Positions 37,952 to 42,093 of a DNA stretch of 64,000 bases are shown here, one piece after another. The stretch's first letter is position 1. Every line of letters begins with the position of its first letter. The notes under the pieces were generated by a model, which searched no databases, was not told where the DNA came from, and saw only the letters and a list, made by a program, of their open reading frames with translations. Both the position numbers and the translations under genes were made by a program. Source of the stretch: Escherichia phage BYEP02. The stretch is from sequence record OR757454.1; one strand, written 5' to 3'.

Positions 37952-38249
37952 TGGCAAAGATAATTATTGAAGGTTCTGAAGATGTGCTAAATGCTTTCGC
38001 CGAATGGTTTAGTAATTCAGGCGAACAGCAATTTAATGAAGCGTGGAAGGTTCTAAAGATGTGCTAAATGCTTTCGCCGAATGGTTTAGTAATTCAGGCG
38101 AACAGCAATTTAACGAAGCATGGAACATGGGTGATATTAATGGAATTTATCCTACTACAGAAATTTCTGTTCAAGGATATGGCATTCATGAACCTATTCG
38201 TTTAGTTGAATACGATTTATGTACTGGTGAGGAAGTCAAATATGATTGA
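37951..38249 (+). CDS. Hypothetical small protein; frameshifted by 77-bp duplication 37969-38122
   Basis: [73 protein letters not shown]. Confidence 0.5.
37969..38122. repeat. 77-bp tandem duplication inside small gene 37951..38249
   Basis: gaaggttct(g/a)aagatgtgctaaatgctttcgccgaatggtttagtaattcagg... twice. Confidence 0.9.
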
Positions 38250-38508
38250 AGATATTAAAGGTTATAAGCCACATACCGACGAAAAAATCGGTAAAGTAAA
38301 TGCTATTAAAGACGCTGAAGTTCGTTTAGGACTTATCTTTGATGCTTTATACGATGAATTTTGGGAAGCACTAGATAATTGTGAAGACTGTGAATTCGCG
38401 AAGAATTATGCTGAAAGCCTCGATCAGTTAACCATTGCTAAAACGAAACTCAAAGAAGCCAGTATGTGGGCTTGTCGTGCTGTGTTCCAACCAGAGGAAA
38501 AATATTAA
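38241..38508 (+). CDS. Hypothetical small protein (88 aa); candidate for the vs.4/Acb2 position
   Basis: [88 protein letters not shown]. Confidence 0.5.
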
Positions 38509-38788: not shown

Positions 38789-38818
38789 GTTTACTTTTCC
38801 TCTTGACTGTGGTATAAT
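38789..38818 (+). promoter_or_regulatory. T4 early-type promoter for regB
   Basis: GTTTACttttcctcttgactgtggTATAAT. Confidence 0.6.
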
Positions 38819-38845: not shown

Positions 38846-39307
38846 ATGACTATCAATACAGAAGTTTTTATCCGTCGAAATAAGCTCCGTCGTCACTTTG
38901 AGTCGGAGTTTCGTCAAATTAACAATGAGATTCGTGAGGCATCAAAAGCAGCAGGGGTCTCATCGTTTCATCTAAAATATTCTCAACATCTTCTTGATCG
39001 TGCAATTCAACGGGAGATTGATGAGACATACGTTTTTGAATTATTCCATAAAATAAAAGACCATGTTTTAGAAGTTAATGAATTCCTGAGTATGCCTCCG
39101 CGTCCTGACATTGACGAGGATTTTATTGATGGGGTTGAATATCGTCCTGGACGTTTAGAAATCACAGATGGAAATCTTTGGCTTGGATTTACAGTTTGTA
39201 AACCTAACGCGAAGTTCAAAGACCCGTCACTTCAGTGTAGGATGGCAATTATCAACAGTCGTCGTTTACCGGGAAAGGCTTCTAAAGCAGTAATTAAAAC
39301 TCAATGA
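38846..39307 (+). CDS. regB: Sequence-specific endoribonuclease RegB (intact, 153 aa)
   Basis: MTINTEVFIRRNKLRRHFESEFRQINNEIREASKAAGVSSFHLKYSQHLLDRAIQREIDETYVFELF...; matches recalled T4 RegB. Confidence 0.85.
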   Translation: MTINTEVFIRRNKLRRHFESEFRQINNEIREASKAAGVSSFHLKYSQHLLDRAIQREIDETYVFELFHKIKDHVLEVNEFLSMPPRPDIDEDFIDGVEYRPGRLEITDGNLWLGFTVCKPNAKFKDPSLQCRMAIINSRRLPGKASKAVIKTQ

Positions 39308-39314
39308 GGTAAGC

Positions 39315-39860
39315 ATGAGAAAAGCACTACTCGCTGGTCTATTGGCCATTTCAATGATGGCACATAGCTCCGAGCATACTTTCAGTAATGTCCAACTCGA
39401 TAACATGCGTTACGCGTATCAATTCGGGGAACAATTTTCTAAGGATGGAAAATATAAAACACACAAAAATATCCACAAGAGCGGATTGGGTCATATAATG
39501 GCTGCTATTTTATGGCAAGAAAGCTCTGCCGGAGTTAATTTAAAATCTAAACCAAAGCATCATGCCTATGGAATGTTCCAAAATTATTTGCCGACTATGC
39601 GAGCAAGAGTTAAGGAACTTGGTTATAATATGACCGATGCTGAAATAAAAAGAATGTTGAATAAACGGTCCAATTCAGCTTCATGGGCGTACATTGAACT
39701 TTCTTATTGGTTAAATATACATAAGGGCGATATAAGAAAGGCAATATCCTCTTATAATTCGGGATGGAATGTTAAAGCAGGTTCTAAATATGCTTCTGAA
39801 GTCCTAGAAAAGGCTAATTACCTTAAAAATAATAAACTTTTGGAAATAGTAAATGACTAA
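39315..39860 (+). CDS. Secreted protein with signal peptide (vs.1-like), 181 aa
   Basis: MRKALLAGLLAISMMAHSSEH... signal peptide; follows regB. Confidence 0.55.
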   Translation: MRKALLAGLLAISMMAHSSEHTFSNVQLDNMRYAYQFGEQFSKDGKYKTHKNIHKSGLGHIMAAILWQESSAGVNLKSKPKHHAYGMFQNYLPTMRARVKELGYNMTDAEIKRMLNKRSNSASWAYIELSYWLNIHKGDIRKAISSYNSGWNVKAGSKYASEVLEKANYLKNNKLLEIVND

Positions 39861-40194
39861 AATTTTGGTTTTATGTATAGGATTAATTTCATTTTCTGCG
39901 TTAGCAAATACATCATACACTGAAATTAGAGAGTATGTAAACCGTACTGCCGCGGATTATTGTGGGAAAAATAAAGCATGCCAAGCTGAATTTGCGCAGA
40001 AATTAATATATGCATATAAAGACGGAGAAAGAGATAAATCAAGTAGATACAAAAATGATACTTTATTAAAACGATATGCTAAAAAGTGGAATACCTTAGA
40101 ATGTTCAGTTGCGGAGGAGAAAGATAAAGCCGCTTGTCATTCAATGGTTGACCGTTTGGTAGATTCTTATAATCGAGGATTGAGTACTAGATGA
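39853..40194 (+). CDS. Secreted small protein with signal peptide (113 aa)
   Basis: MTKILVLCIGLISFSALANTSYTEIREYVNRTAADYCGKNKACQAEF...; 3' end lies in copy 1 of junction duplication 40152-40305. Confidence 0.55.
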   Translation: MTKILVLCIGLISFSALANTSYTEIREYVNRTAADYCGKNKACQAEFAQKLIYAYKDGERDKSSRYKNDTLLKRYAKKWNTLECSVAEEKDKAACHSMVDRLVDSYNRGLSTR

Positions 40195-40305
40195 TTGTAA
40201 AATATATCAAGGGCGATATTGTCGCCCTCCGTTTGGTAGATTCTTATAATCGAGGATTGAGTACTAGATGATTGTAAAATATATCAAGGGCGATATTGTC
40301 GCCCT
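40152..40305. repeat. 77-bp tandem duplication at the junction of the secreted-protein gene and macrodomain-like gene
   Basis: ccgtttggtagattcttataatcgaggattgagtactagatgattgtaaaatatatcaagg... twice. Confidence 0.9.
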
Positions 40306-40735
40306 TTTCGCTGAAGGTAAAAATATTGCGCATGGATGTAATTGTTTTCACACGATGAAAGCTGGAGTCGCAGGTCAATTAACTAAAGCTTTCCCTAAAA
40401 TTTTGGAAGCTGATAAATTACAGACAGAATGGGGCGATGTAACTAAACTCGGTTCTTACTCAGTCTATGAAAAATACTTTAGGACTCATAAAGCTTACTG
40501 CTTCAATCTTTATACTCAATTTCAACCGGGGCCAAATTTTGAGTATTCCGCTTTAATGAATTGTATGTTAGAATTAAATGAGTTTGGTGAAAATAAACTG
40601 ATTAAACCTACAATCTATATGCCTAGGATTGGTGCAGGCATAGGTAAAGGGAACTGGGATATTATTGAGGGGATTTTAGATACATATTCCTCTAAATTAG
40701 AAATTGTGATTGTTGATTGGGAACCGTTATTATGA
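40268..40735 (+). CDS. Macrodomain-like (ADP-ribose binding/processing) protein, 155 aa
   Basis: MIVKYIKGDIVALFAEGKNIAHGCNCFHTMKAGVAGQLTKAFP... and glycine-rich loop PRIGAGIGKGNWDIIEGIL resemble macrodomain motifs (compare YmdB VQGDIT...VNAAH and AFPAISTGVYG). Confidence 0.5.
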   Translation: MIVKYIKGDIVALFAEGKNIAHGCNCFHTMKAGVAGQLTKAFPKILEADKLQTEWGDVTKLGSYSVYEKYFRTHKAYCFNLYTQFQPGPNFEYSALMNCMLELNEFGENKLIKPTIYMPRIGAGIGKGNWDIIEGILDTYSSKLEIVIVDWEPLL

Positions 40736-40944
40736 ATATACATTATCCACATCCGTATGACCCAAAGAATAAGGCAGTAATTATTCGTCAATGGGAACGC
40801 ATTTGCCGTACTAAATGTCCAATTAATAGTCCACATGATGTAGATAAAGACTACATTGGAACATTCGTTGAATATACCTTTATTGATAAGAAAGGTCGTA
40901 AACAACATGTAGAAGAATATTGCTTAAAGGTTACATGGTTATGA
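40732..40944 (+). CDS. Hypothetical small protein
   Basis: MNIHYPHPYDPKNKAVIIRQWERICRTKCPINSPHDVDKDYIGTFVEYTFIDKKGRKQHVEEYCLKVTWL. Confidence 0.5.
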   Translation: MNIHYPHPYDPKNKAVIIRQWERICRTKCPINSPHDVDKDYIGTFVEYTFIDKKGRKQHVEEYCLKVTWL

Positions 40945-41147
40945 GCCAAACTAGTATTCTTAAAAATGCCCACTGCGAAAAGTGTAAGTGGCCGGTTGTT
41001 TTTGCTTTATGCAACGATGAAATGACTTGTGATTTCGATTATTGGTGCTATTGTTCTAATAAAGGATGCATCAATCATAAAGGTGAAGGATTTTATTCAG
41101 GATTTTATCCTTATCCTGATTTCGTTAAAGAAGGTAAACCAAAATGA
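40941..41147 (+). CDS. Cys-rich small protein (putative Zn-binding)
   Basis: MSQTSILKNAHCEKCKWPVVFALCNDEMTCDFDYWCYCSNKGCINHKGEG... Confidence 0.5.
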   Translation: MSQTSILKNAHCEKCKWPVVFALCNDEMTCDFDYWCYCSNKGCINHKGEGFYSGFYPYPDFVKEGKPK

Positions 41148-41320
41148 ATGATGATTTAAAATATCAATTATTACGTGAACTTGATGTTTTGATTAAACTT
41201 TCTGCGCAAAAAGGATTTATAATTGGATCAGGTCAAAAAGACCCCAACGGTCATTCAATCGTAGCAGTTATGAATCAGAAACGAGTCATTTTAAAACTTT
41301 TGGGGATTGACATACTGTGA
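41144..41320 (+). CDS. Hypothetical small protein (58 aa)
   Basis: MNDDLKYQLLRELDVLIKLSAQKGFIIGSGQKDPNGHSIVAVMNQKRVILKLLGIDIL. Confidence 0.45.
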   Translation: MNDDLKYQLLRELDVLIKLSAQKGFIIGSGQKDPNGHSIVAVMNQKRVILKLLGIDIL

Positions 41321-41502
41321 GCCTAAGCAAAGAACAAAAAGATAAATTGTTTGAGCTTATCCATGAACTTCTAGATGAGCATACAGAAGCAAACACCTTT
41401 TATGATGAATACGGCCCGCTATCTCCTGAACAGCAGGAAGAATTTGCTGATCGGTTTGATAAGAAAGAAAATGAATTAATAGCTTATGTGAATACGCTTT
41501 AA
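41317..41502 (+). CDS. Hypothetical small acidic protein (GTG start)
   Basis: ORF MSLSKEQKDKLFELIHELLDEHTEANTFYDEYGPLSPEQQEEFADRFDKKENELIAYVNTL. Confidence 0.45.
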   Translation: MSLSKEQKDKLFELIHELLDEHTEANTFYDEYGPLSPEQQEEFADRFDKKENELIAYVNTL

Positions 41503-41511
41503 GAAGGTGAT

Positions 41512-42093
41512 ATGGCGAGTTTAATTTTTACTTATGCAGCAATGAATGCTGGAAAATCTGCTTCTCTTTTGACTGCTGCGCATAATTATAAAGAACGCGG
41601 AATGAGTGTATTAGTTCTTAAGCCTGCTATTGATACTCGCGATTCTGTCTGTGAAGTCGTTTCTCGCATTGGAATTAAGCAGGAAGCGAATATTATTACG
41701 GATGATATGGATATTTTTGAGTTCTATAAATGGGCTGAAGCACAAAAAGATATTCATTGCGTATTTGTAGATGAAGCTCAGTTTTTAAAAACTGAACAGG
41801 TGCATCAATTAAGCCGAATTGTTGATACATATAATGTTCCTGTTATGGCTTATGGGCTAAGGACTGATTTCGCTGGAAAATTATTTGAAGGTTCTAAAGA
41901 ACTTTTGGCGATTGCAGATAAACTTATTGAACTAAAAGCAGTTTGTCATTGTGGTAAAAAAGCTATTATGACAGCTCGATTAATGGAAGATGGAACACCA
42001 GTTAAAGAAGGTAATCAAATCTGTATTGGTGATGAAATTTATGTTTCTTTGTGTAGAAAACATTGGAATGAATTAACTAAAAAGCTCGGTTAG
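41512..42093 (+). CDS. tk: Thymidine kinase (intact, 193 aa)
   Basis: MASLIFTYAAMNAGKSASLLTAAHNYKERGMSVLVLKPAIDTRD...VFVDEAQFL...; P-loop and C-terminal Zn-ribbon CHCGKKA...C. Confidence 0.92.
   Translation: MASLIFTYAAMNAGKSASLLTAAHNYKERGMSVLVLKPAIDTRDSVCEVVSRIGIKQEANIITDDMDIFEFYKWAEAQKDIHCVFVDEAQFLKTEQVHQLSRIVDTYNVPVMAYGLRTDFAGKLFEGSKELLAIADKLIELKAVCHCGKKAIMTARLMEDGTPVKEGNQICIGDEIYVSLCRKHWNELTKKLG

What the first reader, a model, noticed from the sequence alone, without database searches (positions are those of the whole stretch)
40268..40735. Macrodomain-like protein between regB and tk
N-terminal KGDIVALFAEGKNIAHGCNC and a glycine-rich loop PRIGAGIGKGNWDIIEGIL resemble macrodomain motifs (compare YmdB VQGDIT...VNAAH and AFPAISTGVYG). 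A phage macrodomain could reverse ADP-ribosylation imposed by host defence toxins, or process ADP-ribose-derived signals, and it sits in the region that in T4 also holds the Acb2 (vs.4) position.
Basis: partly seen in the sequence, partly recalled or inferred. Interest (0 to 1): 0.6.

Follow-up and report, generated by a model that had tools for sequence, protein, structure and literature searches.

The report
Phage T4 Tk.4/AdfM macrodomain gene

The parts
40268..40735 (+). tk.4 / adfM coding sequence, 155-aa single-domain macrodomain protein
40340..40342 (+). Codon of N25, invariant in the family; aligns with DarG N22 and SCO6735 N27
   Evidence: 87/87 conserved; hhalign to Taq DarG and SCO6735; N27S in SCO6735 nearly abolishes activity (PMC9411070).
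40355..40372 (+). Loop 1 of the ADP-ribose cleft, M30-K31-A32-G33-V34-A35. T4 has M-G-S-G-V-A, so this window carries the natural K31/A32 variant
   Evidence: G33 and A35 are invariant. Position 31 is G in 75/87 and K in 5/87. The only differences from T4 are G31K and S32A. The exact protein occurs in many T4-like phage genomes.
40517..40519 (+). Codon of Q84, invariant in the family, at the position of the catalytic lysine of TARG1 (K84), DarG (K80) and PhiKZ AdfM (K78); equals Q85 of SCO6735
   Evidence: 87/87 conserved; alignments; Q85A in SCO6735 is inactive (PMC9411070).
40622..40657 (+). Loop 2 of the cleft (diphosphate-binding), P119-R-I-G-A-G-I-G-K-G-N-W130
   Evidence: P119, I121, G122 and G124 are invariant; G128 and W130 are at least 90% conserved; aligns with PRIGCGL of TARG1, SCO6735 and BT1257.
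39853..40194 (+). vs (valyl-tRNA synthetase modifier), the upstream gene. In all relatives its stop overlaps the tk.4 start (ATGA)
   Evidence: PF26829 ValRS_modifier; the gene ends at 1504 and tk.4 starts at 1501 in all 8 related loci.
40152..40305 (.). Perfect 77-bp tandem duplication (40152-40228 and 40229-40305) across the vs stop and tk.4 start. It separates the two genes by 73 bp but leaves both intact
   Evidence: the repeat finder, 100% identity; BLAST to 9 related loci shows that they carry one copy; the junction is absent from all collections searched.
40191..40271 (+). 26-codon mini-ORF created by the duplication (first 13 codons of tk.4 fused to the last 13 codons of vs). Its TGA overlaps the real tk.4 ATG
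   Evidence: Translation MIVKYIKGDIVALRLVDSYNRGLSTR*.
40286..40306 (+). 8-bp G+C-rich hairpin inside codons 7-13 of tk.4. The right edge of the duplication lies at its 3' foot, and a second copy is at 40209-40229
   Evidence: Terminator-like scan; sequence.

Best explanation
The gene is the orthologue of phage T4 tk.4, now called adfM (anti-DarT factor, macrodomain). It is an early-region, single-domain macrodomain enzyme. It most likely binds ADP-ribose attached by the host DarT2 toxin to thymidines in single-stranded phage DNA and hydrolyses the N-glycosidic link, restoring replicable DNA and so defeating the DarTG2 defence. Its active site is not the DarG type. The catalytic lysine is replaced by an invariant glutamine (Q84), probably positioned by the invariant N25. 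This is the arrangement of Streptomyces coelicolor SCO6735, where Gln85 and Asn27 are needed for cleavage of thymidine-linked ADP-ribose. Shown here: the identity, the fold, the conserved residues and the synteny. Shown elsewhere: the genetic requirement of T4 tk.4 for growth on a DarTG2 host. Inferred: that the protein acts catalytically on ADP-ribosylated DNA, and that the K31/A32 variant in this window behaves like the T4 protein.
Against: No biochemical assay of T4 Tk.4 or of this variant was found in the library searched, and the preprint itself only calls enzymatic removal 'likely'. The protein lacks the DarG catalytic lysine. It also lacks the 5-residue-longer lysine-bearing mobile loop that SCO6735 is proposed to use for DNA binding. 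In this window the first glycine of the loop-1 G-x-G motif is a lysine. This is a widespread natural variant, but it has not been tested. The genetic evidence comes from a preprint and from one DarTG2 system.
Confidence: 0.8

Rival explanations
1. The protein neutralises DarT2 mainly without catalysis, by binding the toxin or its DNA substrate, as the second domain of DarG does.
For: Catalytically dead SCO6735 Q85A inhibited DarT activity in vitro, more strongly than dead DarG or TARG1 macrodomains (PMC9411070). The lack of a catalytic lysine in Tk.4 makes a binding role conceivable.
Against: Q84, N25 and both ADP-ribose-binding loops are invariant across a family only about 35-55% identical overall, which is the pattern of a working active site. 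The protein has no DarT-binding domain (155 aa, one domain). The related Gln-type enzyme is catalytic.
Confidence: 0.1
2. It is an ADP-ribose-1''-phosphate phosphatase or another processor of soluble ADP-ribose derivatives (RNA-repair by-products or NAD-derived immune signals). This is what the database label 'phosphatase / A1pp motif' implies.
For: RefSeq and PHROG call it a phosphatase, following the 2006 A1pp match. It shares the H-x-C-N-C stretch with yeast Poa1p, and Poa1p is the second-best structural match. In distant T4-like contigs the homologue lies near Rnl1 and Pnkp. A survey of viral NAD/ADPr systems argued that phage Macro domains mostly target small ADPr derivatives (PMC9503650).
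Against: The only phenotype reported is specific to DarTG2, a DNA-modifying system. The label comes from domain naming, not from an assay. No source of Appr-1''-p during T4 infection is known (my own knowledge). The proximity to RNA-repair genes may simply reflect T4-like gene order.
Confidence: 0.07
3. It erases protein or RNA ADP-ribosylation, made either by the phage's own transferases (Alt, ModA, ModB) or by another host defence. Protection from DarTG2 would then be a side activity.
For: TARG1 and SCO6735 act on both protein and DNA substrates. T4-like phages carry ADP-ribosyltransferases (my own knowledge).
Against: No data were found. tk.4 is dispensable on a host without DarTG2 and was singled out only with DarTG2.
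Confidence: 0.05

Closest known systems
Phage T4 Tk.4 = AdfM (NP_049723; bioRxiv 10.1101/2025.11.20.689424)
   Same: 155 aa, 153/155 identical, the same position between vs and tk.3, and the same invariant residues.
   Different: G31K and S32A in loop 1, a natural variant shared with many T4-like phages. A 77-bp tandem duplication upstream is unique to this window.
Streptomyces coelicolor SCO6735 (PDB 5E3B) and Bacteroides BT1257 (2FG1/2AFC), stand-alone Gln-type ALC1-like macrodomains
   Different: Identity is only about 21-29%. Tk.4 lacks the 5-residue-longer mobile loop with Lys89/Lys94. G23 replaces Val25. Tk.4 is phage-encoded.
DarG antitoxin macrodomain (T. aquaticus 5M31/5M3E, M. tuberculosis 5M3I)
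   Different: DarG has catalytic Lys80 where Tk.4 has Gln84. DarG has a second, DarT-binding domain and an adjacent darT gene, and Tk.4 has neither. The NCBIfam DarG score is 25 against a cut-off of 250.
PhiKZ gp104 AdfM (chimallivirus macrodomain, PMC13309987)
   Same: A phage-encoded single macrodomain that counters DarTG2, with the same name. Removal of DarT2 marks was shown in vitro for PhiKZ.
   Different: It is a different subfamily: Lys-type (K78) and closely DarG-like (E 9e-25 to M. tuberculosis DarG). It is the weakest of the three profile matches to the Tk.4 family (96.6%). It is imported into the phage nucleus.
Human TARG1/OARD1 and yeast Poa1p
   Same: Same ALC1-like branch. TARG1 also removes DarT-type thymidine ADP-ribosylation (title and abstract of PMC8501950).
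   Different: The TARG1 catalytic dyad K84/D125 is Q84/G126 in Tk.4. Poa1p is a phosphatase for Appr-1''-p.

Membership tests
Macro domain (Pfam PF01661) | Score at or above the curated gathering cut-off | tested here: met
   25 bits against 22, residues 22-132.
Macro domain (Pfam PF01661) | Three-layer alpha/beta/alpha macro fold | tested here: met
Macro domain (Pfam PF01661) | Conserved ADP-ribose-binding loops (N...G-x-G-[IV]-A and P-x-I-G-x-G) | tested here: met
   N25, G33, A35, P119, I121, G122 and G124 are invariant. The first Gly of loop 1 is Lys in this window.
Macro domain (Pfam PF01661) | Binds ADP-ribose | not testable with these tools
   No docking or binding assay is available.
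T4 Tk.4 / AdfM orthologue group | High identity and conserved position vs - tk.4 - tk.3 | tested here: met
   99% identity. The same neighbours occur in T4 and in 8 related loci.
T4 Tk.4 / AdfM orthologue group | Needed for growth on a DarTG2 host | not testable with these tools
   Shown for T4 only, in a preprint.
DarG antitoxin (NCBIfam NF048014) | Score at or above the curated cut-off, and two-domain architecture (macro plus DarT-binding domain) | tested here: not met
   25.1 bits against 250. Only profile positions 2-146 of 338 are matched, and the protein is 155 aa.
DarG antitoxin (NCBIfam NF048014) | Catalytic lysine (K80 of T. aquaticus DarG) | tested here: not met
   Q84 aligns with K80 and is invariant in the family.
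DarG antitoxin (NCBIfam NF048014) | Adjacent darT toxin gene | tested here: not met
   The neighbours are vs and tk.3.
SCO6735/BT1257-type (Gln-type) ALC1-like macrodomains | Gln at the catalytic-lysine position plus the Asn that positions it | tested here: met
   Q84 aligns with Q85 and N25 with N27. The same holds for BT1257. The role of these residues is from PMC9411070.
SCO6735/BT1257-type (Gln-type) ALC1-like macrodomains | Extended mobile loop with Lys89/Lys94 | tested here: not met
   There is a 5-residue gap in Tk.4 opposite GMKTGSKG of SCO6735.
SCO6735/BT1257-type (Gln-type) ALC1-like macrodomains | Hydrolysis of thymidine-linked ADP-ribose on ssDNA | not testable with these tools
   This needs an enzyme assay.
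Poa1p-type ADP-ribose-1''-phosphate phosphatase | Phosphatase activity on Appr-1''-p | not testable with these tools
   Only a shared H-x-C-N-C stretch and fold similarity were seen. The paper on the Poa1p mutants is not in the library.

The most novel reading that the evidence does not exclude
T4-type AdfM is not a captured DarG antitoxin. It would be an independently recruited, lysine-less (Gln84/Asn25) macrodomain of the SCO6735/BT1257 kind that removes DarT2 marks by a different chemistry from DarG and PhiKZ AdfM. Phages would then have arrived at anti-DarT2 macrodomains at least twice, and the roughly 2,700 phage genomes carrying this family would share that lysine-independent enzyme.
Probability: 0.55. 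Interest if true: 0.35.

Novelty: already known. Interest (0 to 1): 0.15.

Why it matters
The gene shows how T-even phages stack counter-defences against DNA ADP-ribosylation: AdfA and AdfN against DarTG1, and Tk.4/AdfM against DarTG2. For annotation, the common label 'phosphatase' for this gene in about 2,700 phage records is probably misleading, and 'DNA ADP-ribosylglycohydrolase, anti-DarT2' is better supported. The only new point is mechanistic. The T4-type protein carries the glutamine-type active site of SCO6735 rather than the lysine of DarG. This tells an experimenter which residues to mutate (Q84, N25). It also suggests that two unrelated phage lineages recruited different macrodomain subtypes for the same job.

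Tried and rejected
1. The single-sequence phmmer alignment to BT1257 placed Q84 out of register. The profile alignments corrected this, so I relied on those.

I rebuilt it without that row.

3. I looked for the Poa1p structure paper to learn what the H23A and S30A mutants do. It is not in the library, so the phosphatase rival could not be examined at residue level.

4. I looked up two family members labelled as bacterial MAG proteins, to see whether bacterial relatives sit next to darT. Both contigs turned out to be T4-like phage DNA, so nothing was learned about a bacterial origin.

5. I scanned IMG/VR, metagenome and genome collections for the duplication junction, and all scans were negative.

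6. I considered the antisense ORF 40615-40908 (97 aa) as a gene and rejected it. It lies wholly inside conserved sense-strand genes of a one-directional early region and is not called in any relative.

7. I considered the hairpin at 40286-40306 as a terminator. On the sense strand only four T follow it, and it lies inside the coding sequence, so I do not claim a function.

8. The large representative-protein search and the third fold search were not used, because the answer did not depend on them.

Full report
**Observation**

The ORF at 40268-40735 on the + strand is present, starts with ATG and encodes 155 residues. The gene order around it is:

- regB, 38846-39307
- a 181-aa SLT-like gene (vs.1), 39315-39860
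- vs, 39853-40194
- this gene
- four small ORFs
- tk, 41512-42093

This is the T4 order regB - vs.1 - vs - tk.4 - tk.3 - tk.2 - tk.1 - tk. The protein is 153/155 identical to T4 Tk.4 (NP_049723). The only differences are G31K and S32A. The exact sequence is on record in many T4-like phage genomes and metagenomic contigs. In the phage collection 656 records match the DNA, nearly all from Escherichia, Shigella, Yersinia and Salmonella phages.

The vs.4 homologue (87/88 identical to T4) is at 38242-38508, upstream of regB and not between regB and tk.

**Is it a macrodomain?**

Yes, by every test run:

- Pfam Macro scores 25 bits against a gathering cut-off of 22.
- PHROG 335 matches at 1.4e-64.
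- NCBIfam and PADLOC give weak hits to DarG only.
- The single sequence already finds solved macrodomains: BT1257 at 2e-8, then Poa1p, TARG1, SCO6735 and DarG.
- A profile of 86 homologues raises these to 3e-19 (BT1257), 1e-15 (TARG1), 1e-14 (SCO6735), 6e-14 (M. tuberculosis DarG) and 8e-14 (Poa1p). Viral MacroD-type domains appear only near E 1e-3.
- The AlphaFold2 model is confident, with mean pLDDT 95.8 and pTM 0.91.
- Foldseek returns TARG1, Poa1p, BT1257 and DarG at probability 1.0.

**What is already known**

The A1pp/macro match of tk.4 has been in the literature since at least 2006 (PMC1524935). It appears in the T4 RefSeq record as 'phosphatase; contains A1pp phosphatase motif'.

Work on DarTG1 showed that T4 lacking adfA and adfN is still resistant to DarTG2, and predicted a further factor (PMC11257639). 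A 2025 preprint (10.1101/2025.11.20.689424) found tk.4 as the single significant hit when a T4 transposon library was grown on a DarTG2 host. It also showed that a clean knockout is sensitive to DarTG2, and named the gene adfM. Its authors state only that enzymatic removal of ADP-ribose from DNA 'seems likely'.

Independently, a chimallivirus macrodomain (PhiKZ gp104) was also named AdfM and was shown in vitro to remove DarT2 marks from DNA (PMC13309987).

**Active site**

In an alignment of 87 family members, only about 35-57% identical outside the closest T4-like relatives, eleven positions are invariant: G23, N25, G33, A35, D49, Y82, Q84, P119, I121, G122 and G124.

Q84 aligns with residues of known importance in four relatives:

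- the catalytic K84 of TARG1
- K80 of T. aquaticus DarG (the chain carries a 10-residue tag, so chain K90 is K80)
- K78 of PhiKZ AdfM
- Q85 of SCO6735 and the equivalent Gln of BT1257

N25 aligns with DarG N22 and SCO6735 N27. The TARG1 partner D125 is G126 here.

The SCO6735 paper (PMC9411070) shows that this lysine-less enzyme cleaves DarT-made thymidine-linked ADP-ribose from DNA. It also shows that Q85A is dead, that N27S is almost dead, and that the enzyme protects Streptomyces from DarT. Its authors propose a water-mediated mechanism in which Gln85 positions the distal ribose.

Tk.4 carries exactly this Gln/Asn pair. SCO6735 is also the best of the three profile matches: 98.6% against 97.9% for DarG and 96.6% for PhiKZ AdfM.

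Tk.4 differs from SCO6735 in lacking the five-residue-longer mobile loop with Lys89/Lys94. It is therefore not a simple copy of that enzyme either. T4-type AdfM and PhiKZ-type AdfM share a name and a target but belong to different macrodomain subtypes.

**The K31/A32 variant**

In this window the first glycine of the loop-1 motif M-G-x-G is a lysine. That position is G in 75 of 87 sequences but K in 5, A in 3 and N in 2, whereas G33 never varies. The exact protein is common in natural T4-like phages. I take the variant to be functional, but this is an inference.

**Mechanism and rivals**

The best-supported account has the protein made from the early regB-tk transcription unit. A promoter-like site with an extended -10 lies at 38790-38818, and none is convincing directly upstream of tk.4. 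The protein would bind ADP-ribosyl-thymidine in single-stranded phage DNA and hydrolyse it through the Gln84/Asn25 site.

- Shown here: identity, fold, invariant residues and synteny.
- Shown elsewhere: the DarTG2 phenotype of T4 delta-tk.4, and the chemistry of SCO6735.
- Inferred: that Tk.4 is catalytic on DNA.

The rivals are:

- stoichiometric inhibition of DarT2, since dead SCO6735 does inhibit DarT in vitro;
- a role on soluble ADP-ribose derivatives, as the 'phosphatase' label and the Poa1p similarity suggest;
- erasure of protein or RNA ADP-ribosylation.

None of these has direct support, and the invariance of the active-site residues argues for catalysis.

**Distribution**

tblastn finds the family in 2,733 of 50,697 phage records. 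These include T4-like, rV5-like and Felix O1-like phages and phages of Vibrio, Acinetobacter and Pseudomonas. Two members labelled as bacterial MAG proteins are on T4-like phage contigs.

**A side observation**

A perfect 77-bp tandem duplication (40152-40228 and 40229-40305) spans the vs stop and the tk.4 start. All nine related loci have one copy, with the vs stop overlapping the tk.4 start as ATGA. The junction sequence is absent from those loci, from IMG/VR, and from the metagenome and genome collections. No phage record matches the region in one piece.

Both genes stay intact. A 26-codon mini-ORF is created whose TGA again overlaps the tk.4 ATG, so translational coupling could be kept. 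The right edge lies at the foot of a G+C-rich hairpin. Whether the duplication is real or an assembly error cannot be told from the sequence.

**Verdict**

The feature is an already described gene, T4 tk.4/adfM. The incremental point is that its active site is of the SCO6735 glutamine type rather than the DarG lysine type. Interest is low.

Noticed in passing
window 40152-40305: Perfect 77-bp tandem duplication across the vs stop and tk.4 start. It is absent from all related phage loci and from every collection scanned. It leaves vs and tk.4 intact and creates a 26-codon mini-ORF (40191-40271) whose stop overlaps the tk.4 start. It could be a recent real duplication or an assembly artefact.
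   Followed up: yes
window 40286-40306 (second copy 40209-40229): 8-bp G+C-rich hairpin (AAGGGCGA-TATTG-TCGCCCTT) inside codons 7-13 of tk.4. The duplication ends at its 3' foot. With two copies present, the RNA is predicted to form a long composite stem (z -3.8). No function is known.
   Followed up: partly
window 38242-38508: vs.4 (Acb2, the anti-CBASS sponge) homologue, 87/88 identical to T4. It lies upstream of regB, about 1.8 kb from tk.4, so two anti-defence genes sit in the same early region.
   Followed up: partly
window 40355-40363: Loop-1 motif reads M-K-A-G instead of T4's M-G-S-G. A lysine replaces the first glycine of the G-x-G motif, next to the position where DarG, SCO6735 and BT1257 carry a lysine (G-K-G). 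This is a common natural variant whose effect on activity is untested.
   Followed up: partly
window 39853-40194: vs is 113 aa here, as in two of the eight related loci (one of them KM607004), but 115 aa in T4 and most other relatives. The same HIDEN-SEQ preprint reports vs as the gene most depleted in minimal medium.
   Followed up: no
L010 1-6397 and L011 1-8480: Distant homologues of the macrodomain, labelled as proteins of bacterial MAGs, lie on T4-like phage contigs close to RNA ligase 1, Pnkp and a Dda-like helicase. This may be mere synteny or a link to RNA repair.
   Followed up: no
window 40732-41502: The small ORFs between tk.4 and tk vary in number among relatives, with 4 or 5 genes and one or two DUF7438 copies. 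The window has the 4-ORF arrangement, and the left and right halves of the region have different closest relatives (97.5% against 99.65% to slur03), which suggests mosaicism.
   Followed up: no
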